From IMG/VR virus record IMGVR_UViG_3300045988_007202, positions 1 through 6,406 of that record: a DNA stretch of 6,406 nt; one strand, written 5' to 3'. How positions within the stretch are numbered: position 1 is the stretch's first letter; every line of letters begins with the position of its first letter. Origin of the DNA: a virus. The notes under the pieces were generated by a model. The model did not search any database and was not told the origin of the DNA. It saw only the letters and a list, made by a program, of their open reading frames with translations. Both the position numbers and the translations under genes were made by a program. Below, in pieces: positions 1 to 6,406 of this stretch.

Positions 1-119
1 ATTTTTTTGGTATTTCTCGTTCTGAAGGTTTTAAAAAACTTGTTAGTTATTTGGGATATGGTGAAACTTCGCCTGAAAAGTATGTTGACAATCTTCGTTG
101 TAGTGCTTTCCCCCTTTAC
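1..119. repeat. Terminal redundancy: copy 1 of an exact 119-nt direct repeat, identical to 6288..6406. It marks a circular 6,287-nt genome.
   Basis: A base-by-base comparison of 1-119 with 6288-6406 shows identity. The repeat lies inside the VP1 reading frame and keeps the frame. Confidence 0.95.
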
Positions 120-1496: not shown

Positions 1497-1994
1497 ATGA
1501 AAGAAGATATTGTTAAAGGTTTCGCGAAATATTCGCTTAATCGTTCTAATCAATTACATGAATGTTCTTGTCACGGTGTTCATTGTGCCGCTGTTGCTCT
1601 TTCTGGTGTATTACGTGAACAATCTCCGGTTGAGGATTTCCTCTTTGATAAAAATTTTGATGGTTCGCTTACGTTTGTTAGTGACTATGGTATTATCGCT
1701 GGTCAAACTGCGATTGATCAGATGAACTCGACGCAACTACGTCGTTATTTAAACGGTTTACGTCCTTCTTCTTCTCCTTATACTCGCCATTATGACGATA
1801 AGTTTCTTTTAGAGTATTGTAAGGATCGTAATATTCAGTCGTATACCGAAATGCAAGCTTGGCTTGAACATTTGATTTCAGAAGGTCAGTCTCTTGAAGG
1901 CGATGTTGCTGCTTATCAGGCTGCTGAGTTGGCTAAACAACAACAGCAACAGCAACAGCAACAACAACAATCTGCCCCGTCTTCTTCAGAATGA
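1497..1994 (+). CDS. Hypothetical 165-aa protein with a C-terminal Q11 tract. It sits between VP1 and VP2, so it may be an internal scaffolding-type protein; that function is not recognised from the sequence.
   Basis: The first ATG is at 1497 (the track ORF begins at TTG 1491). Codon bias is T-ending, like the neighbouring genes. Its stop TGA 1992-1994 overlaps the VP2 ATG 1991 as ATGA. Confidence 0.7.
   Translation: MKEDIVKGFAKYSLNRSNQLHECSCHGVHCAAVALSGVLREQSPVEDFLFDKNFDGSLTFVSDYGIIAGQTAIDQMNSTQLRRYLNGLRPSSSPYTRHYDDKFLLEYCKDRNIQSYTEMQAWLEHLISEGQSLEGDVAAYQAAELAKQQQQQQQQQQQSAPSSSE
1938..1970 (+). repeat. CAA/CAG trinucleotide repeat encoding 11 consecutive glutamines.
   Basis: The codons CAA CAA CAG CAA CAG CAA CAG CAA CAA CAA CAA are in frame with ORF 1497..1994. 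Confidence 0.95.
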
Positions 1995-3088
1995 TAGGTG
2001 CTGCTATTGGTGCCGCTGGTTCATTGGCCAGCGGTGTTGTTAATGCTATTGGAAATAATCGTCAGGGTTCTAAAAACAGGAAACATCAGCTTCAGATGCA
2101 AAAGATCCAGAACGAATGGGCAAGTTCTGAATCGCAAAAATCTCGTGATTTTGCTAAGTCTATGTTTGACGCTTCTAATGAATGGAACTCCGCTAAAAGT
2201 CAGCGTGCACGATTGGAGGAAGCTGGTTTAAACCCCTATTTAATGATGAATGGTGGTAATGCTGGTACGGCTCAGTCTACTTCTGCTCAGTCTGTTTCTG
2301 GTTCTTCTGGTTCAGGCGGTGCGCCTTATCAGTATACGCCTACTAATGTGATTGGTGATGTTGCTTCTTTTTCTGGTGCAATGAGGTCTCTTTCTGAAGC
2401 TCGTAAGTTTGGTACTGAAGCTGATTTACTTGATCGGTATGGTGATTCTGATTATTCTTCTCGTATTGCGAATACTGAGGCTGACACTTTTTTTAAACAA
2501 CGTCAATCTGATGTTGCTACTGCTCAGCGAGCTAATTTGCTTTTGTCTGCCGATGCACAAGAAGTTATGAATTCTTATCTTCCTCAGGAGAAACAGATCC
2601 AGCTTTCTACGCTTGGCTCTCAATATTGGAATCTTATCCGTGATGGTTCAATTAAAGAAGAACAGGCTAAAAATCTTCTTGCTACTCGTTTAGAGATTGA
2701 AGCCCGTACGGCTGGTCAACATATTTCTAATAAGGTTGCTCGTTCAACGGCTGATAGTATTATTGATGCTACTAATACTGCTAAGATGAATGAAGCTGCT
2801 TATAATCGAGGTTATTCTCAATTTTCTAATGATGTTGGTTATCGTACAGGTAAGATGGACCGTTGGTCTCAGGATCCTGTGAAGGCTCGCTGGGATAGAG
2901 GTATTAATAATGCTGGTAAGTTTATCGATGGTCTTTCTAATATCGTTGGTTCTGTTACTAGGTTTGGTTTCTTAAAGAATGCTAGGAATTCGTTAAAAGA
3001 ATCTAAACGTCAATTTGATCGAGGTACTGTTGACATCTTCGACGATAATAGAGGTTATTCTTGGACGCGTCAACATCGCGGACGTTAG
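1991..3088 (+). CDS. VP2: VP2 minor capsid / DNA pilot protein (functional analogue of phiX174 H), 365 aa.
   Basis: The N-terminus is Gly/Ala-rich and hydrophobic (MIGAAIGAAGSLASGVVNAIG). The motif RLEEAGLNPYLMM is typical of microvirus VP2 proteins. There is a Ser/Gly linker and a coiled-coil-like Q/A/E-rich centre. The start is coupled to the upstream stop as ATGA. Confidence 0.85.
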   Translation: MIGAAIGAAGSLASGVVNAIGNNRQGSKNRKHQLQMQKIQNEWASSESQKSRDFAKSMFDASNEWNSAKSQRARLEEAGLNPYLMMNGGNAGTAQSTSAQSVSGSSGSGGAPYQYTPTNVIGDVASFSGAMRSLSEARKFGTEADLLDRYGDSDYSSRIANTEADTFFKQRQSDVATAQRANLLLSADAQEVMNSYLPQEKQIQLSTLGSQYWNLIRDGSIKEEQAKNLLATRLEIEARTAGQHISNKVARSTADSIIDATNTAKMNEAAYNRGYSQFSNDVGYRTGKMDRWSQDPVKARWDRGINNAGKFIDGLSNIVGSVTRFGFLKNARNSLKESKRQFDRGTVDIFDDNRGYSWTRQHRGR

Positions 3089-3112
3089 TTGTCTTTAGTT
3101 TTTACTCCTTTC

Positions 3113-3146
3113 AAGGGATTGGCTTTAATTAGTCAGTCCCTTTTTT
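3113..3146 (+). terminator. Intrinsic-terminator-like hairpin plus T tract, 25 nt after the VP2 stop.
   Basis: AAGGGATTGGCT (3113-3124) pairs with AGTCAGTCCCTT (3131-3142). This gives 12 bp including 2 G-T/U wobbles, with the loop TTAATT. The T run 3141-3146 follows the stem. Confidence 0.55.
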
Positions 3147-3219
3147 GTATGGCCCTCCTGCTTCACTGCACTTCCTATCCCCTTCTATCTGTCCAGCCCA
3201 GCTGGGGGGCCCCTCTGGG

Positions 3220-3234
3220 GGGAGCAAGGCTCCC
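3220..3234 (+). other. Hairpin GGGAGC-AAG-GCTCCC (6-bp stem, triloop).
   Basis: Perfect inverted repeat read directly from the sequence. Confidence 0.55.
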
Positions 3235-3283
3235 TAAATCTCTATGTCGAGCGGTAGCGAAGAATGAAAAAAACGTCGGCTGT

Positions 3284-3302
3284 CCACGGGCCGAAGCCGT
3301 GG
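3284..3302 (+). other. Hairpin CCACGG-GCCGAAG-CCGTGG, a 6-bp GC-rich stem whose loop contains CGAAG.
   Basis: Perfect 6-bp inverted repeat. On the complementary strand the same element reads as a C(UUCG)G-type loop. Confidence 0.55.
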
Positions 3303-3320
3303 TCCCCCGGAAGGGTCTTA

Positions 3321-3327
3321 GCGAAGC
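3321..3327 (+). other. Exact GCGAAGC mini-hairpin heptamer, copy 1.
   Basis: Exact match to the d(GCGAAGC) sequence known to form an unusually stable GAA-loop DNA mini-hairpin. Confidence 0.5.
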
Positions 3328-3359
3328 GTTGATCTGCATAGTTTATAATTTTTATTGGT

Positions 3360-3414
3360 ACGAAGTTCTTAGACTTTCGTGCGAAGCAAACCGGATTAAT
3401 TGTAATCTCCGGTT
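3360..3414 (+). other. Cluster of three adjacent hairpins upstream of the rep gene: 3360-3380, the GCGAAGC mini-hairpin 3381-3387, and 3389-3414 with an AT-rich loop.
   Basis: ACGAA (3360-3364) pairs with TTCGT (3376-3380) and the stem can extend. GCGAAGC at 3381-3387 is exact. AACCGGA (3389-3395) pairs with TCCGGTT (3408-3414). Alternatively AACCG/CGGTT plus GATTA/TAATC form a 10-bp stem with a 2-nt bulge and an ATTG loop. Confidence 0.6.
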
Positions 3415-3487
3415 CAAACTCCCTTGTTCACGATTGGCGAAAGTCACATGACTATATAAAGGTATTGTGTTATTGAAATAAAGTTAT

Positions 3488-3495
3488 TATGTTTG
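3488..3495 (+). promoter_or_regulatory. Bacteroidota-type -7 promoter element TAnnTTTG (TATGTTTG), 4 nt upstream of the VP4 ATG.
   Basis: Motif match read directly. ATTG at 3464-3467 lies 20 nt upstream as a weak -33 TTTG-like element. No Shine-Dalgarno sequence is present. Confidence 0.35.
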
Positions 3496-3499
3496 CAGC

Positions 3500-5119
3500 A
3501 TGATTAATGAACGAAGTAAAACATATGGTTCTTGTCTTCATCCTCGTGTGATAAAGAATAAATATACCGGTGACCCTGTATATGTTCCTTGTGGCACTTG
3601 TGAATTTTGTATCCATAATCGTGCTGTTAAGTCAGAACTTAAATGTAATGTTCAGCTTGCTGCTTCTAAGCATTGCATGTTTGTTACGCTTACTTATTCT
3701 ACTGAGTATTTGCCCGTAGGTAAGTTTTATAAAGGTCCTGCTGGCGAGGTTCGTTTTCGTTCATTACCTCGTGATTTTGTTTATTCATATAAAACTGTTC
3801 AAGGTTATTTACGTAATATATCGTTTAATGATGAGACTTTTGATTTTTCTACTCAATTGTCTTGGGAGTCTGCACGATTATTGCAAGAAAAGACACATTT
3901 ACATTATACTGCTTTTCCTGACGGTCGGCGTGTTTATAATCGACCTTATATGAAAGGTCTTATTGGTTATCTTAACTATCGTGATCTACAGCTTTTTCTT
4001 AAACGTTTAAATCAAAATATAAGGAGTATTACAAATGAAAAGATTCACTACTACGTTACAGGAGAATATGGACCAGCAACTTTCCGTCCGCATTTCCATC
4101 TCTTATTTTTCTTCGACTCGGACAGGCTCGAACAAAGTTTTGGACAGCTTGTTTCTAAGAGCTGGCGATTTGGTGATTCAGATACGCAATCTGTCTGGTC
4201 TTCCGCTTCATGCTACGTTGCGGGATATGTTAATAGTACTGCGTGCCTTCCCGACTTTTTTAAGAATTCTCGGCATATTAAGCCGTTCGGGCGCTTTTCT
4301 GTCCATTTTGCGGAATCCCCTTTTGACGAGATCTTTAAACCGGAAGAAGATGCGGCGTTATTCTCTTTATTCTATGCTGGTCGATTCCTCGATCTTGGTG
4401 GAAAGCCTACGGCGGTCAAACCTAAGAGGTCGCATATCAATCGATTATACCCCCGACTTAATAAGTCTAAGCATGCGACTGTGGATGATGATATACGAGT
4501 TGCTTCAGTTATATCAAAGCTCCCCCAAGTCCTTGCAAAGTTTGGCTTCATTGACGAAGTGAGTAATTTTGAGCTTTCGAAGCGTGTTTATTATTTAATT
4601 CGTCGATATTTGGAAGTTGATCATTCTTTGGATTATGCGCCTGAGGAGCTTCGTGTTATTTATAATGCTTGTCGTCTGTCGCTTTATATCAACTTTTCAG
4701 ATGAAAGTGGTTGCTCTGCTATTTATCGTTTATTACTTCAATATTGTAATTTGGTTAATTATTGGATAACTGCGCCTGTTGGATCTGTTGCTTTTGTTGG
4801 TCAGTTGCGTAAAGCTGTGAGGACTATTCATGCTTTTTATGATTATTTTGAACGTCGGTCTTTGCGTGATCAGCTTGTACAGGTTGAAAAGTATTCTAAT
4901 GATTCTTATGTGCGTGATAATTTATCTATATATTATTTTTACCCTTTGACTGATGTAGATATAATGAAGAAATCTTATTCAGATTTTGTGCTTGGTAGTC
5001 CTGTTCTTCGAGCCAGCTATGCTGATTACGCGGCGGATAATCGTGAACGTATCAAGCACAAGTATTTGAATGATCAGAATGCTTTATTGATTGCTGAGGT
5101 TGACAAAAAACCTATTTAA
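3500..5119 (+). CDS. VP4: VP4 rolling-circle replication initiator (HUH endonuclease, analogue of phiX174 protein A), 539 aa.
   Basis: N-terminal Cys cluster CLHP...VPCGTCEFC. RCR motif I is FVTLTY (3680-3697). The HUH motif is PHFHLLFF, with H-F-H at 4091-4099. The two-tyrosine motif YVAGYV (4214-4231) matches the YVAKYV arrangement of phiX174 A. Confidence 0.93.
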   Translation: MINERSKTYGSCLHPRVIKNKYTGDPVYVPCGTCEFCIHNRAVKSELKCNVQLAASKHCMFVTLTYSTEYLPVGKFYKGPAGEVRFRSLPRDFVYSYKTVQGYLRNISFNDETFDFSTQLSWESARLLQEKTHLHYTAFPDGRRVYNRPYMKGLIGYLNYRDLQLFLKRLNQNIRSITNEKIHYYVTGEYGPATFRPHFHLLFFFDSDRLEQSFGQLVSKSWRFGDSDTQSVWSSASCYVAGYVNSTACLPDFFKNSRHIKPFGRFSVHFAESPFDEIFKPEEDAALFSLFYAGRFLDLGGKPTAVKPKRSHINRLYPRLNKSKHATVDDDIRVASVISKLPQVLAKFGFIDEVSNFELSKRVYYLIRRYLEVDHSLDYAPEELRVIYNACRLSLYINFSDESGCSAIYRLLLQYCNLVNYWITAPVGSVAFVGQLRKAVRTIHAFYDYFERRSLRDQLVQVEKYSNDSYVRDNLSIYYFYPLTDVDIMKKSYSDFVLGSPVLRASYADYAADNRERIKHKYLNDQNALLIAEVDKKPI

Positions 5120-5269: not shown

Positions 5270-5674
5270 ATGTATAAGCCTAAGTATTTTTCTCTGTTGG
5301 AACTTATTGATACAAGTCATACGGTTCTTCAGAATAATGTTCCTTCTTGGTGTTCTTTGGAAAACCTCCTTTCTTTGTGTGAAAAGGTTCTTGATCCTTT
5401 GCGTGAGGCCTATGGTAAGCCTTTATTTGTAAATTCAGGTTATCGTTCTAGTTTTGTGAATAAATCTGTCGGTGGTGTTTCCATTTCTCAGCATTTGGTA
5501 GGTTGTGCTGCTGACATTTCTGTTTCTTCTGATTGTTCGCTGCCTGCGTTGTTTGATCTTGTTCAGGAGTTACACTTGCCTTTTGATCAGCTTATTTATT
5601 ATAAGGTTCGGAATTTTATTCATATTTCGTGGTCTCCTTACCCGCGGTCTCAGGTTATTGTTAGAAATGCTTAA
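5270..5674 (+). CDS. Peptidase M15 family zinc peptidoglycan hydrolase (VanY / D-Ala-D-Ala carboxypeptidase fold, Peptidase_M15_3-like), 134 aa. Probable endolysin.
   Basis: It carries the SGYRS...N..VGG..SQH......AADI block, with H75-x6-D82 (CAT 5492-5494, GAC 5513-5515). The third zinc ligand is in FIHISW (CAT 5621-5623). This is the canonical H-x6-D...H signature of the family. Confidence 0.85.
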   Translation: MYKPKYFSLLELIDTSHTVLQNNVPSWCSLENLLSLCEKVLDPLREAYGKPLFVNSGYRSSFVNKSVGGVSISQHLVGCAADISVSSDCSLPALFDLVQELHLPFDQLIYYKVRNFIHISWSPYPRSQVIVRNA

Positions 5675-5882
5675 TTTTGATGTCGGTTCTTTTCCGTCTA
5701 TTCATAATGATATAGTAGACGGGATACCTGAAAATTATGTTTGTTATTATAAAAAGTATTTGTATGAAATTGAATTTATCCGTTTTAAAAAAAGTGATTC
5801 TGTTTATTTACGACATTATAACGTTTCTGCTACAGAGAAAGAAAAACAATTAGTTATTAATTTTAAATTTGATGGAAAATGA
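5667..5882 (+). CDS. Hypothetical 71-aa protein (MLNFDVGSFPSIHNDIVDGIPENYVCYYKKYLYEIEFIRFKKSDSVYLRHYNVSATEKEKQLVINFKFDGK).
   Basis: ATG 5667 overlaps the peptidase stop by 8 nt. Its stop TGA 5880-5882 overlaps the VP1 ATG 5879 as ATGA. The part of track ORF 5505..5882 upstream of this ATG looks like a frame artefact. Confidence 0.5.
   Translation: MLNFDVGSFPSIHNDIVDGIPENYVCYYKKYLYEIEFIRFKKSDSVYLRHYNVSATEKEKQLVINFKFDGK
5864..5871 (+). promoter_or_regulatory. TAnnTTTG motif (TAAATTTG), 7 nt upstream of the VP1 ATG.
   Basis: Motif read directly. Together with the hairpin at 3113-3146 it would define a transcription unit covering VP1, the 165-aa ORF and VP2. Confidence 0.3.
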
Positions 5883-6406
5883 GTAGTTTATTTTCGTATG
5901 GAGATATTAAGAATTCTCCCCGTCGCTCTGGTTTCGATTTATCGAACAAATGTGCATTTACAGCTAAGGTAGGTGAGTTACTTCCTGTCTTTTGGAAGTT
6001 TTGTTTACCTGGTGATAATTTTAATATTTCTCAGGAGTGGTTTACCCGTACGCAGCCTGTGGATACTTCTGCTTTTACTCGCTTGCGTGAGTACTATGAA
6101 TGGTTCTTTGTGCCATTGCATTTGCTTTATCGTAACAGTAACGAGGCTATTATGTCTATGGAGAACCAGCCTAACTATGCTGCTTCTGGCTCTTCTTCAA
6201 TTAGTTTTAATCGGAATTTGCCTTGGGTAGATTTGTCGACTATAAACACTGCTATTGGTAATGTTCAATCTTCTACTTCGCCACTTAATTTTTTTGGTAT
6301 TTCTCGTTCTGAAGGTTTTAAAAAACTTGTTAGTTATTTGGGATATGGTGAAACTTCGCCTGAAAAGTATGTTGACAATCTTCGTTGTAGTGCTTTCCCC
6401 CTTTAC
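5879..6406 (+). CDS. VP1: Major capsid protein VP1, N-terminal 176 codons. It runs off the window end and continues at base 120 of the window through the circular junction.
   Basis: Hand translation gives MSSLFSYGDIKNSPRRSGFDLSNKCAFTAKVGELLPVFWKFCLPGDNFNISQEWFTRTQPVDTSAFTRLREYYEWFFVPLHLLY... This shows the microvirus capsid N-terminal pattern R.FDLS...G.L.P....LPGD...FFVP. There is no stop before the window end. The ORF is missing from the track because it is open-ended. Confidence 0.93.
   Translation, partial: MSSLFSYGDIKNSPRRSGFDLSNKCAFTAKVGELLPVFWKFCLPGDNFNISQEWFTRTQPVDTSAFTRLREYYEWFFVPLHLLYRNSNEAIMSMENQPNYAASGSSSISFNRNLPWVDLSTINTAIGNVQSSTSPLNFFGISRSEGFKKLVSYLGYGETSPEKYVDNLRCSAFPLY
6288..6406. 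repeat. Terminal redundancy: copy 2 of the exact 119-nt direct repeat, identical to 1..119.
   Basis: Direct comparison with bases 1-119. Confidence 0.95.

What the first reader, a model, noticed from the sequence alone, without database searches (positions are those of the whole stretch)
3151..3340. GC-rich, structure-dense island in the only long non-coding gap of a T-rich microvirus genome
The genome is packed almost to the base, with overlapping starts and stops, yet 411 nt (3089-3499) between VP2 and VP4 lack a convincing gene. Within that gap, 3151-3340 is about 59% G+C (113/190 by hand count), while sampled coding lines are 33-45%. The island is strand-asymmetric: a CT-rich stretch (3151-3200) is followed by G runs. 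It is saturated with palindromes and hairpins. In phiX174 and G4 the complementary-strand origin (the primosome or primase recognition hairpins) lies in an intergenic region. A minus-strand origin is therefore the leading hypothesis. Alternatives are a structured ncRNA, a recombination/attachment site, or a foreign insertion or assembly chimera.
Basis: partly seen in the sequence, partly recalled or inferred. Interest (0 to 1): 0.7.

Follow-up and report, generated by a model that had tools for sequence, protein, structure and literature searches.

The report
Conserved single-stranded-DNA replication element in gut microviruses
The G+C-rich island is real, non-coding and the best-conserved stretch of this Bacteroides microvirus genome; with an adjacent three-way-junction element found in 98 of 100 related gut microvirus sequences searched, it most likely marks where the single-stranded genome is copied, probably the long-missing complementary-strand origin of this virus group.

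Summary
Window 3151-3340 is 113/190 = 59.5% G+C against 39% genome-wide. It lies in the only long non-coding gap (3089-3499) of a 6287-nt phiHBP1-like Bacteroides microvirus. It is neither a chimera nor a foreign insert: all 27 close relatives carry it, and 3203-3302 is the most conserved 100 nt of the genome (91.6% against 67.4%).

The feature is larger than reported:
- a terminator-like hairpin (3113-3148);
- a clade-specific G+C island, "module A" (3151-3327);
- a variable spacer;
- "module B" (3356-3455), a mini-hairpin plus three-way junction.

A covariance model of module B hits 98 of 100 related microvirus loci, once each, always on the coding strand.

Module B pairing is 95.8% Watson-Crick and only 1% G-T. 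Its loops are mostly GNA triloops, the "GCGAAGC" DNA mini-hairpins known from the phage G4 complementary-strand origin. These motifs are about tenfold enriched on the viral strand only.

There is no Rfam match, no conserved ORF and no promoter inside. I read it as a single-stranded-DNA replication region. The island is the probable minus-strand origin, and module B is either its core or the VP4 nick site. Function is inferred, not shown.

The parts
3113..3148 (+). Terminator-like hairpin (AAGGGATTGGCT / AGTCAGTCCCTT) followed by a T run, 25 nt after the VP2 stop codon (3086-3088)
   Evidence: Pattern scan. The helix is kept with compensatory and G-T changes in relatives. In type-2 genomes the T run is only 3 T.
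3151..3200 (+). Pyrimidine-rich 5' part of module A (GGCCCTCCTGCTTCAC...), 76% C+T. Near-invariant GGCCCTCCTGCTTCAC with only C-to-T changes.
   Evidence: 76.4% identity to type-2 genomes. Pairing partner not established.
3203..3302 (+). Core of module A, the most conserved 100 nt of the genome (91.6% identity against 67.4% genome-wide)
   Evidence: Clade-specific: nhmmer finds nothing in other clades.
3204..3215 (+). Small G-run hairpin GGGGG / CCCTC (contains G-T pairs)
   Evidence: No double changes, so weakly supported.
3220..3234 (+). Hairpin GGGAGC-loop-GCTCCC. The loop varies in length (AAG, TCGCAG, AGGCAC, AAGCAT).
   Evidence: One compensatory C-G to A-T change (L027).
3229..3246 (+). 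Near-invariant GCTCCCTAAATCTCTATG (one A-to-G change in two of 27 sequences; its 3' 12 nt are unpaired)
3251..3258 (+). GNNA mini-hairpin GC-GGTA-GC. Variants are GC-GGGA-GC and GAC-GGGA-GTC.
3264..3277 (+). Invariant ATGAAAAAAACGTC with an A7 run (3267-3273)
   Evidence: The mini-ORF that starts here is cut by TAG in 3 relatives.
3277..3302 (+). Tentative H-type pseudoknot. S1 is CGGC 3277-3280 with GCCG 3290-3293. S2 is CCACGG 3284-3289 with CCGTGG 3297-3302. Loop position 3295 takes all four bases (C-GNA-G).
   Evidence: all cells paired. S1 has one linked compensatory change in L001 and L031. S2 is invariant, so it is untested.
3306..3315 (+). Mini-hairpin CCC-GGAA-GGG. It covaries with CTC-GGA-GAG, GCC-GGA-GGC and CTC-GGGA-GAG.
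   Evidence: read from the alignment.
3321..3327 (+). GCGAAGC mini-hairpin at the 3' edge of module A (GCGGAGC in L019; this block is replaced in about half of the relatives)
3328..3355 (+). A+T-rich variable spacer, partly deleted in many relatives (37.5% identity over 3316-3355)
3356..3455 (+). Module B, a universal element: a mini-hairpin plus a three-way junction
   Evidence: Covariance model R1 hits 98/100 loci, one copy each, on the coding strand. Covariation. The DNA minimum-free-energy fold reproduces it (z -1.97).
3360..3366 (+). Mini-hairpin 1, AC-GAA-GT. The loop is GNA across the family: GAA 76, GTA 9, GGA 5, GCA 1, GAAA 5.
3372..3445 (+). P1, the closing helix: GACTTTCG (3372-3379) with CGAAAGTC (3438-3445)
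   Evidence: 6 of 7 model pairs show double changes. Examples: AGTTGTG/CACAACT, TCACTTTTC/GAAAAGTGA.
3380..3388 (+). P2, mini-hairpin TGC-GAA-GCA. The stem covaries (TCC/GGA, TAC/GTA, CCC/GGG, CGC/GCG).
3389..3414 (+). P3 hairpin AACCGGA-TTAATTGTAATC-TCCGGTT. All 8 model pairs covary, and the loop begins with a conserved TTA(T/A).
3421..3430 (+). Unpaired junction strand CCCTTGTTCA holding the family-invariant CTTGT(C/T)
   Evidence: consensus CTtGTcc. A candidate recognition or initiation site (inference).
3443..3449 (+). Conserved GTCACAT (family consensus TcACAc), spanning the last three P1 pairs and the four bases 3' of P1
3488..3495 (+). Bacteroides-type -7 box TATGTTTG, 4 nt before the VP4 ATG (3500). 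It marks the 3' limit of the untranscribed stretch.
   Evidence: Conserved in relatives.

Best explanation
The island is the clade-specific half of a two-part, cis-acting replication region. This region acts as folded single-stranded DNA of the viral (+) strand, not as a gene or an RNA.

Proposed mechanism:
1. After injection the circular ssDNA is coated by host single-strand-binding protein (SSB).
2. The G+C-rich hairpin cluster stays folded. It comprises module A (3151-3327) with its GNA/GNNA mini-hairpins, plus the neighbouring three-way junction with two GNA triloops (module B, 3356-3455).
3. That folded region offers the Bacteroides priming machinery (primase, primosome or RNA polymerase) a landmark at which to start the complementary strand, as the hairpins of the G4 and phiX174 intergenic origins do.
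4. Module B is universal in this microvirus lineage. Its invariant unpaired CTTGTC is either the core start site of that reaction or the site where the Rep protein VP4 nicks the viral strand (the plus origin). In the second case both origins sit side by side in the only non-coding stretch.

Shown here: the region is non-coding, extremely conserved and strand-specific; module B has a covariation-backed fold; its pairs are Watson-Crick only; its loops are GNA.

Inferred: that the folded molecule is DNA, and that the function is priming or initiation of replication.
For: 1. Not coding. ORFs are not conserved, substitutions are even over codon positions (76/86/82), there are 1-nt indels and stop codons, and there is no Pfam hit.

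2. Strong selection. 3203-3302 is the most conserved 100 nt of the genome (91.6% against 67.4%); module B is 84.6%.

3. Family-wide. R1 finds module B in 98/100 loci with VP4 identity down to 26%, single copy, always on the coding strand. Mean G+C is 0.50-0.56 just upstream, against about 0.38 elsewhere. The genome's G+C maximum lies within 400 nt upstream of the mini-hairpin pair in 76% of the 66 genomes that have the pair.

4. Structure. In module B 92.6% of cells are paired, against 72% in shuffles and 22-43% for slid partners. 18/21 pairs show double changes; 0/500 shuffles reach the observed percentage paired, double-change cell count or covariation score.

5. DNA signature. Paired cells are 95.8% Watson-Crick, 1.0% G-T and 0.1% A-C. 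Loops are mostly GNA triloops, with all four N. The review PMC13037366 states that GCGNAGC/GCGNNAGC DNA mini-hairpins are far more stable than their RNA counterparts (r(GCGAAAGC) Tm 39 C) and bind SSB poorly. It places them at the G4, St-1 and alpha3 complementary-strand origins, RSF1010 ssiA and phage N4 hairpin promoters.

6. Strand-specific enrichment of such motifs. The window gap has 5 against 0.5 expected (0/2000 shuffles), 1 on the other strand, and 4 in the remaining 5876 nt. Across the family: 7.25/kb on the + strand against 1.62/kb on the - strand, and 1.2-1.5/kb elsewhere.

7. Probably little transcribed. A terminator-like hairpin lies at 3113-3148. The -7 box sits at 3488-3495. No TAnnTTTG or sigma-70-like promoter lies between them on either strand.

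8. Direct analogue. The annotated G4 origin of complementary-strand synthesis lies in a 136-nt intergenic gap of 0.59-0.61 G+C, with three hairpins, one holding GCGAAAGC.

9. Bullavirinae pattern. G4 and phiX174 share an identical 30-nt plus origin (544 records), while their complementary-strand origins differ in kind (primase-primed against PriA primosome; textbook knowledge). This matches a universal module B beside a clade-specific module A.
Against: No experiment and no read or transcript data exist, so function is pure inference.

Single-sequence folding of the island is no better than composition-matched shuffles (z about 0 with DNA parameters).

Within module A most helices never vary, so they are untested. 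One of them holds many G-T pairs.

There is no sequence or model similarity to the G4 origin.

No host promoter-like motif fits an RNA-polymerase-primed origin.

The primase initiation site of Bacteroidales is unknown.

The scarcity of G-T pairs would also fit a structure needed on both strands.

Some of the covariation counts reflect few clade-level events, and A6 was fitted to the model.

Read-through transcription past the terminator cannot be excluded.
Confidence: 0.5

Rival explanations
1. The gap holds the viral-strand (plus) origin. VP4 (Rep) binds the module B hairpins and nicks the unpaired, invariant CTTG|TC. The G+C island is an accessory Rep-binding or melting-control region rather than a priming site.
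For: Module B is universal across VP4 divergence down to 26% identity, as expected for a Rep-matched site.

Its most conserved unpaired bases are CTtGTcc. This is loosely like the CTTG|ATA nick core of phiX174 and pC194 (30-mer confirmed; nick position from memory).

A hairpin followed by about 10 nt and then the site resembles Rep and relaxase origins (general knowledge).

No phiX-type origin exists elsewhere in the window, and this is the only non-coding region.

Cassette mosaicism and a gene-order break lie at the gap edge.
Against: The similarity to CTTGATA is only 4 nt.

The long-range helix P1 can form only in single-stranded DNA, whereas phiX-type initiation acts on supercoiled duplex.

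G+C-rich stable hairpins and SSB-resistant mini-hairpins are hallmarks of priming sites, not of regions that must melt.

In Bullavirinae the plus origin lies inside the Rep gene.

Module A, the reported island, is not shared between clades.
Confidence: 0.17
2. The region works as RNA: a structured 3' UTR of the VP1-VP2 transcript, a 5' leader of VP4, or a small non-coding RNA made by read-through or from an unrecognised promoter.
For: The structure is on the mRNA-sense strand.

Some loops are GNRA tetraloops (GGAA, GGGA, GAAA).

G-T (G-U) pairs occur in the terminator hairpin and in one module A helix.

A pseudoknot is possible.

The terminator is weak in type-2 genomes.
Against: There is no Rfam family at E up to 1 on either strand.

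No promoter motif lies inside, and a terminator-like hairpin lies upstream.

Module B pairs are 95.8% Watson-Crick with 1% G-T, and C-G to U-A switches occur without wobble intermediates.

Triloops far outnumber tetraloops, and these are much less stable in RNA (PMC13037366).
Confidence: 0.15
3. It is a recombination or attachment site (dif-like XerC/D substrate), possibly folded in ssDNA as in CTX phage.
For: Bacteroidales microvirus proviruses lack integrases. They are flanked by dif-like sites that lie on the VP2/VP4 side of the genome (PMC3091885). Cassette-like mosaic variation occurs in the gap.
Against: No prophage copies were found with two exact-pattern scans of 185,579 species genomes.

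The helices are 3-9 bp, too short for a 28-bp dif duplex.

300 nt of conserved structure is far more than a dif site needs.

phiHBP1 was isolated as a plaque-forming phage (PMC13064476).
Confidence: 0.05
4. It is protein-coding: a read-through extension of VP2 (ORF 3089-3451 is in frame behind the TAG), the hypothetical CDS annotated in phiHBP1, or the MKKT mini-ORF at 3264.
For: A 120-codon open frame lies in phase with VP2. GenBank annotates a 136-aa CDS across the region in phiHBP1. ATGAAAAAAACG is invariant.
Against: Frame and extent are not conserved. Single-base indels occur in G runs.

Substitutions are even across codon positions. The mini-ORF is cut by TAG in 3 genomes. There is no Pfam hit.
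Confidence: 0.03
5. It is an assembly chimera or a recent foreign insertion.
For: The composition is atypical for the genome.
Against: The island is present at the same place in 27 independent assemblies and in a cultured, Sanger-checked phage (PMC13064476). Analogous islands occur in about 100 more distant genomes. There is no plasmid match, and two exact-pattern scans of bacterial genomes found nothing.
Confidence: 0.01

Closest known systems
Complementary-strand origin of phage G4 (primase-dependent; also St-1, alpha3)
   Same: It lies in an intergenic gap of the viral strand, just after a structural gene and before the next gene. It is a local G+C peak (G4 0.59-0.61; here 0.60-0.62). It is a cluster of stable hairpins and contains GCGAAAGC/GCGAAGC-type DNA mini-hairpins (PMC13037366).
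   Different: There is no sequence or model similarity. The element is about 300 nt in two modules, against 136 nt with three hairpins. It has a three-way junction closed by a long-range helix. The host is Bacteroidales, whose primase specificity is unknown. No primer has been mapped.
phiX174 n' (PriA) primosome assembly site in the F-G intergenic region
   Same: A hairpin region of the viral strand in an intergenic gap that survives SSB coating and recruits host priming proteins (PMC9865509, citing Shlomai and Kornberg 1980).
   Different: That site is a single hairpin of about 55 nt (length from memory) recognised by PriA. No similarity was tested or is expected. PriA dependence cannot be assessed here.
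RNA-polymerase-primed single-strand origins (M13/f1 minus origin; ssoA/ssoU of rolling-circle plasmids)
   Same: Orientation-specific, highly structured non-coding regions of 150-300 nt that convert ssDNA to dsDNA. ssoA has a conserved TAGCG(T/A) loop motif (from memory). TAGCGA occurs at 3253-3258 and 3319-3324.
   Different: No promoter-like -33/-7 or -35/-10 motifs are presented by the helices. There is no match in 72,556 plasmids.
Other GNA-triloop ssDNA recognition sites (RSF1010 ssiA with CCGAAGG for RepB' primase; phage N4 virion-RNA-polymerase hairpin promoters)
   Same: Short G-C stems capped by GAA or GGA triloops serve as landmarks for a primase or polymerase on single-stranded DNA (PMC13037366).
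   Different: Those are single hairpins recognised by element-encoded enzymes. This microvirus encodes no primase or polymerase.
Conserved intergenic hairpins predicted in reekeekee- and roodoodoo-microviruses
   Same: Conserved non-coding hairpins with compensatory substitutions near Rep, tentatively linked to negative-strand synthesis (PMC9865509).
   Different: Those are one or two simple hairpins in much smaller genomes. No G+C island, GNA-loop pattern or three-way junction was reported.
phiX174/G4 30-nt viral-strand origin (gpA site)
   Same: It is universal within its subfamily, as module B is here. It shares a CTTG core followed by an A/T-rich stretch.
   Different: It lies inside the Rep gene and is unstructured. 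No match was found in the window.

Membership tests
G4-type primase-dependent complementary-strand origin | Lies in a non-coding gap of the packaged (+) strand between two genes | tested here: met
   Gap 3089-3499 is non-coding. The G4 origin is annotated in the F-G gap.
G4-type primase-dependent complementary-strand origin | Cluster of stable hairpins forming a local G+C and stability peak | tested here: met
   G+C 0.60-0.62. ssDNA stability ranks 6/315. All proposed pairs are kept in 27 genomes. However, the z-score against composition-matched shuffles is about 0.
G4-type primase-dependent complementary-strand origin | GCGAAAGC-class DNA mini-hairpin within the origin | tested here: met
   GCGGTAGC 3251, CCGGAAGG 3307, GCGAAGC 3321 and 3381, ACGAAGT 3360. 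This is 5 against 0.5 expected. G4 hairpin I has GGCGAAAGCC.
G4-type primase-dependent complementary-strand origin | Sequence or structure homology to the G4/St-1/alpha3 origin | tested here: not met
   The nhmmer profile of module A and covariance model R1 find nothing in G4.
G4-type primase-dependent complementary-strand origin | Primase starts an RNA primer at a defined site next to the hairpin on SSB-coated DNA | not testable with these tools
   Needs biochemistry or 5'-end mapping.
phiX174 n'/PriA primosome assembly site | Hairpin bound by PriA with ATPase activation | not testable with these tools
   No sequence definition is available to test.
RNA-polymerase-primed ss origins (M13 minus origin, plasmid ssoA) | Promoter-like hexamers presented in duplex stems | tested here: not met
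   No TAnnTTTG lies within 3143-3487 on either strand. No sigma-70-like site lies in the gap.
RNA-polymerase-primed ss origins (M13 minus origin, plasmid ssoA) | Conserved CS-6 motif TAGCG(T/A) in a terminal loop (motif recalled from memory) | tested here: inconclusive
   TAGCGA occurs at 3253-3258 and 3319-3324. It overlaps the mini-hairpin stems and is not in a terminal loop. The second copy is absent in half of the relatives.
phiX174-type viral-strand origin | 30-nt gpA recognition sequence CAACTTGATATTAATAACACTATAGACCAC | tested here: not met
   Its first 18 nt find no match with up to 3 mismatches. CTTGATA occurs only once, on the other strand, at chance level.
HUH-Rep origins in general (hairpin plus nearby unpaired nick site) | Conserved unpaired nick motif beside a Rep-binding hairpin, co-distributed with the Rep | tested here: inconclusive
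   The invariant unpaired CTtGTcc lies 3' of hairpin P3 in all 98 genomes. Cleavage is untested.
Described structured RNA families (Rfam 15) | Match to a covariance model | tested here: not met
   No hit in the gap at E up to 1, both strands. No tRNA or tmRNA.
dif-like XerC/D attachment site of Bacteroidales microvirus proviruses | 28-bp dif-like site at the provirus junction | not tested
   The att sequences are not given in the text of PMC3091885. No prophage copies were retrieved.
Intrinsic terminator (for 3113-3148 only) | G+C-containing hairpin followed by a T run on the sense strand | tested here: met
   12-bp stem, 6-nt loop and TTTTTTG tail. The helix is kept with compensatory and wobble changes.

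The most novel reading that the evidence does not exclude
The universal three-way junction with two GNA triloops, together with the clade-specific G+C island, is an undescribed bipartite replication origin of the gut-dominant Alpavirinae-like microviruses. In this reading, DNA mini-hairpins that resist SSB are the recognition code for the Bacteroidales priming machinery. VP4 nicks at the invariant unpaired CTTG|TC of the same element. Both strand origins would then be fused in one region of about 300 nt that works only as folded single-stranded DNA.
Probability: 0.25. Interest if true: 0.75.

Novelty: new variant of a known kind. Interest (0 to 1): 0.6.

Why it matters
Alpavirinae-like microviruses are among the commonest phages of the human gut. 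Yet no cis-acting replication signal has been defined for any microvirus outside the phiX174/G4 group.

This work gives a precise, family-wide candidate: coordinates, a fold, invariant bases and a covariance model. A close relative, phiHBP1, can now be grown on Bacteroides fragilis, so the origin question is directly testable.

It also matters for three further reasons:
- It is a clean natural example of selection on single-stranded DNA structure (Watson-Crick-only covariation, GNA triloops).
- It flags probable false gene calls over this region in at least two GenBank microvirus records.
- It provides a marker for finding and orienting such genomes in metagenomes.

Tried and rejected
- Rfam scan of the whole window at E up to 1 and tRNA/tmRNA search: nothing in the gap. 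The one Rfam hit (pestivirus 3' UTR, 4919-5085, E 0.98) is chance.
- Coding readings: rejected on frame, indel, codon-position and Pfam grounds. These covered VP2 read-through, the phiHBP1 hypothetical CDS, the MKKT mini-ORF, and -1 frameshifting at the A7 run plus pseudoknot.
- Structure-blind mutual information over the 27-sequence alignment: dominated by linked cassette haplotypes and uninformative.
- 17-mer hits in two large phage contigs (L013, L014): chance, only 18-20 nt.
- Two exact-pattern scans of bacterial genomes for prophage or host copies: empty. Plasmid search: empty.
- Most-shared k-mers across 83 genomes, to locate a plus origin: dominated by coding conservation. For example CCTTATTAA is the VP1 C-terminus.
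- A hairpin in the 'second gap' (CCGTCTA...TAGACGG, about 5699-5727) as plus-origin candidate: the region is coding-like.
- nhmmer profile of module A against other clades and G4: no homology.
- A crude control for G-T content of terminator hairpins (30% G-T) is biased by the way the stems were picked. It is not used as evidence.
- Helix GTACGAAGT/ACTTTCGT, suggested by the first 7-sequence fold: dropped in favour of mini-hairpin 1 plus long-range P1.
Full report
WHAT THE WINDOW IS. The window is a complete circular microvirus genome of 6287 nt, with an assembly overlap (1-119 repeats at 6288-6406). It is 81.6% identical to Bacteroides phage phiHBP1, the first cultured Bacteroidota microvirus (PMC13064476). 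All genes are on the + strand. They are VP1 (Phage_F; 5879 across the junction to 1460), ORF 1491-1994, VP2 1991-3088, VP4/Rep 3500-5119 (PF23343) and an M15 peptidase 5270-5674.

CHECK OF THE OBSERVATION. The count is exact: 113/190 = 59.5% G+C in 3151-3340, against 39.0% for the genome. 3151-3200 is 76% pyrimidine, and G exceeds C afterwards. The genome's G+C maximum (0.62 over 150 nt) starts at 3179.

The 411-nt gap is the only long non-coding stretch. The apparent gap at 5675-5878 varies with period 3 and is covered by ORF 5505-5882.

The open frame 3089-3451 (in phase with VP2) and the CDS annotated over this region in phiHBP1 are not real genes:
- Frames and extents differ among 27 relatives.
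- Single-base indels occur in conserved runs.
- Substitutions fall 76/86/82 on the three codon positions.
- A TAG cuts the mini-ORF at 3264 in three genomes.
- There is no Pfam match.

The claim of exceptional folding is only half right. Against dinucleotide shuffles the z-scores are -1.32 and -0.73 (RNA, whole gap) and 0.03 and 0.10 (DNA, 3147-3320). Against other windows of the same genome the island is very stable (-25.4 against -12.8 +/- 4.6 kcal/mol, rank 6 of 315). Its stability is therefore what its composition gives.

CLOSE RELATIVES. DNA-pattern and protein-guided searches gave 27 distinct phiHBP1-like genomes, all 6.1-6.9 kb gut microviruses. All carry the region in the same place.

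Against seven 'type-2' genomes that average 67.4% identity genome-wide, the most conserved 100-nt window of the whole genome is 3203-3302 (91.6%). 3356-3455 scores 84.6%, while the stretch between them (3316-3355) scores 37.5%. That rules out a chimera or recent insertion. It also shows two conserved modules, A (3151-3327) and B (3356-3455), separated by a disposable spacer.

Upstream, 3113-3148 is a terminator-like hairpin with a T run. Downstream, a Bacteroides-type -7 box (TATGTTTG, 3488-3495) sits 4 nt before the VP4 ATG. No such box and no sigma-70-like site lies between 3143 and 3487 on either strand.

STRUCTURE IN THE CLOSE CLADE. RNAalifold and hand inspection give a set of helices for which all 1107 sequence-by-pair cells are standard pairs. 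Ten pairs carry changes on both sides (0/500 shuffles; slid controls 33-50% paired).

Most of the informative changes are in module B. In module A the helices are almost invariant:
- hairpin 3220-3234 has one compensatory change;
- helix 3277-3280/3290-3293 has one linked compensatory change, and could form a pseudoknot with the invariant hairpin 3284-3289/3297-3302;
- the 3-bp stem at 3306-3315 switches among CCC/GGG, CTC/GAG and GCC/GGC;
- 3251-3258 switches between GC-GGKA-GC and GAC-GGGA-GTC.

Module A also contains long runs that are invariant or nearly so and mostly unpaired: GCTCCCTAAATCTCTATG and ATGAAAAAAACGTC.

THE WIDER FAMILY. The next VP4 relatives in GenBank are only about 30% identical. 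Four of them (Dulem viruses) also have a non-coding gap right after the pilot-protein gene. In three of the four a hairpin with a T run (clearest in two) precedes a G+C island (0.55-0.62) studded with GCGAAGC-like hairpins; the fourth gap opens directly with the island.

A VP4 profile then retrieved 75 further genomes. In 66 of 80 genomes a pair of C-GNA-G mini-hairpins 18-22 nt apart marks a conserved context homologous to window 3356-3455.

On a 56-sequence alignment the proposed fold is strongly supported. The fold is mini-hairpin 1, closing helix P1, mini-hairpin P2 and hairpin P3, with an unpaired junction strand.
- 88.8% of cells are paired, against 75% in shuffles and 22-48% when slid.
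- 15 of 21 pairs have double changes.
- 131 cells have double changes, against 36 (0/500 shuffles).

P1 is made of quite different sequences in different clades: GACTTTCG/CGAAAGTC, AGTTGTG/CACAACT, GAGTTTGC/GCAAACTC, TCACTTTTC/GAAAAGTGA.

A covariance model built from this alignment (R1) hits 98 of 100 microvirus loci at E 5e-20 to 1e-4. It hits once per genome, and on the VP4 strand in every locus that had been oriented by VP4. It hits nothing in G4 or in two unrelated phage contigs. On the model-fitted alignment 92.6% of cells pair and 18/21 pairs show double changes. That alignment leans towards the model.

The DNA minimum-free-energy fold of the window's own module B is this same three-way junction (z -1.97).

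Module A has no detectable homology outside the phiHBP1 clade. Its equivalent is nevertheless there. Averaged over 98 genomes, G+C is 0.50-0.56 from 200 to 50 nt upstream of module B, against about 0.38 elsewhere. The genome-wide G+C maximum lies within 400 nt upstream in 76% of the 66 genomes that have the mini-hairpin pair.

DNA OR RNA, AND WHICH STRAND. Three observations point to folded single-stranded DNA of the viral strand.

(i) In module B 95.8% of paired cells are Watson-Crick, 1.0% G-T and 0.1% A-C. Pairs flip between C-G, U-A and G-C with almost no wobble intermediates. That is unlike typical RNA families (general knowledge).

(ii) The loops are mainly GNA triloops closed by C-G. 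Mini-hairpin 1 has GAA 76, GTA 9, GGA 5, GCA 1; P2 has GAA 63, GAAA 13. According to the review by the discoverers of these motifs (PMC13037366):
- d(GCGNAGC) and d(GCGNNAGC) are extraordinarily stable;
- their RNA versions are not (r(GCGAAAGC) Tm 39 C);
- they bind SSB poorly;
- they occur at the complementary-strand origins of G4, St-1 and alpha3, at RSF1010 ssiA and in phage N4 hairpin promoters.

(iii) The motifs are strand-specific and local. The window gap has 5 on the + strand (0.5 expected, 0/2000 shuffles) and 1 on the - strand, against 4 in the other 5876 nt. Across the family the figures are 7.25/kb (+) and 1.62/kb (-) in the region, and 1.2-1.5/kb elsewhere.

Together with the flanking terminator and promoter and the empty Rfam scan, an RNA function is the less likely reading. 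It is not excluded: module A tolerates C-to-T changes opposite G, and one of its helices has many G-T pairs.

COMPARISON WITH KNOWN ORIGINS. In the G4 record the origin of complementary-strand synthesis (3998) and its RNA primer (3970-3997) lie in the 136-nt F-G gap. That gap is a G+C peak of 0.59-0.61 with three hairpins, the last being GGACGGCGAAAGCCGCCGTCC.

The present element shares the setting, the composition and the mini-hairpin. It shares no sequence or model similarity, and it is larger and differently built.

The 30-nt viral-strand origin of phiX174 is identical in G4 and in 544 records, while phiX174 and G4 prime their complementary strands in different ways (established knowledge). 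By analogy, the universal module B could be the Rep (VP4) site. Its invariant unpaired CTtGTcc loosely recalls CTTG|ATA, and no phiX-like origin exists elsewhere in the window. The clade-specific island would then be the minus origin.

Equally, module B with its two SSB-resistant triloops could be the core of the priming site. The data do not decide between these.

VERDICT. The finding is real and more general than reported. It is a conserved, strand-specific, non-coding replication-type element of the viral ssDNA, present across an entire lineage of gut microviruses.

The main rivals are a VP4-dependent plus origin (0.17) and an RNA role (0.15). I found no description of this element in the searchable literature. 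Only generic intergenic hairpins in other microvirus clades have been proposed as possible minus origins (PMC9865509).

Noticed in passing
window 1-119 and 6288-6406: The two ends of the window are identical. The genome is a 6287-nt circle with an assembly overlap, and VP1 (ATG 5879) runs across the junction.
   Followed up: yes
window 3488-3495 and 5864-5871: Bacteroides-type -7 promoter boxes (TAnnTTTG) lie 4-7 nt before the ATGs of VP4 (3500) and VP1 (5879). The VP4 box is kept in relatives (TAtaTTTG, TAtcTTTG). This suggests leaderless or near-leaderless mRNAs.
   Followed up: partly
L001 (PV598014.1) 2326-2736; L035 (PP511330.1) 3581-3784: GenBank records annotate hypothetical proteins over the non-coding element (phiHBP1) or over module B (Dulem virus 257). 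These are probably false gene calls caused by the stop-poor composition.
   Followed up: partly
window 5505-5882: This ORF overlaps the 3' end of the M15 peptidase gene (5270-5674) in another frame and fills the apparent second gap. Variation among relatives is 3-periodic, so it is probably a real overlapping gene. It has no Pfam hit.
   Followed up: partly
window 1861-2074: This is the most stable predicted ssDNA fold of the genome (-28.6 kcal/mol over 174 nt), at the junction of ORF 1491-1994 and the start of VP2. It is even more stable than the island.
   Followed up: no
window 3244-3263 and 3303-3355: Variation in the gap comes as two or three alternative blocks, reassorted among genomes (e.g. 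TCGAG-CGGTAGCGAAGA / ACGAGACGGGAGTCGAGC / TGAGAGCGGKAG-CGAAC). This is a recombination mosaic.
   Followed up: partly
window 3456-3500; L034-L037: Gene order differs between clades. Here it is VP2-gap-VP4-small ORF-peptidase-VP1. In three of the four Dulem viruses fetched it is VP2-gap-small ORFs-peptidase-VP4-VP1; the fourth has no annotated peptidase. The rearrangement point is the 3' edge of the gap.
   Followed up: no
window 3089-3451: A 120-codon open frame follows the VP2 TAG stop in the same phase, which looks like a read-through extension. It is not conserved in relatives.
   Followed up: yes
L097 549-648 and 6685-6784; L025; L044: Some contigs carry two module B copies one genome length apart. 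These contigs are longer than one genome unit (concatemer or assembly overlap).
   Followed up: no
L034-L114, about 10-30 nt after module B: In the dominant clade module B is followed by a small fourth hairpin (e.g. CTACGGTAG or CCATCACAAATGG) and an A run of 7-9. The window lacks this and instead has its A7 run inside module A (3267-3273).
   Followed up: no
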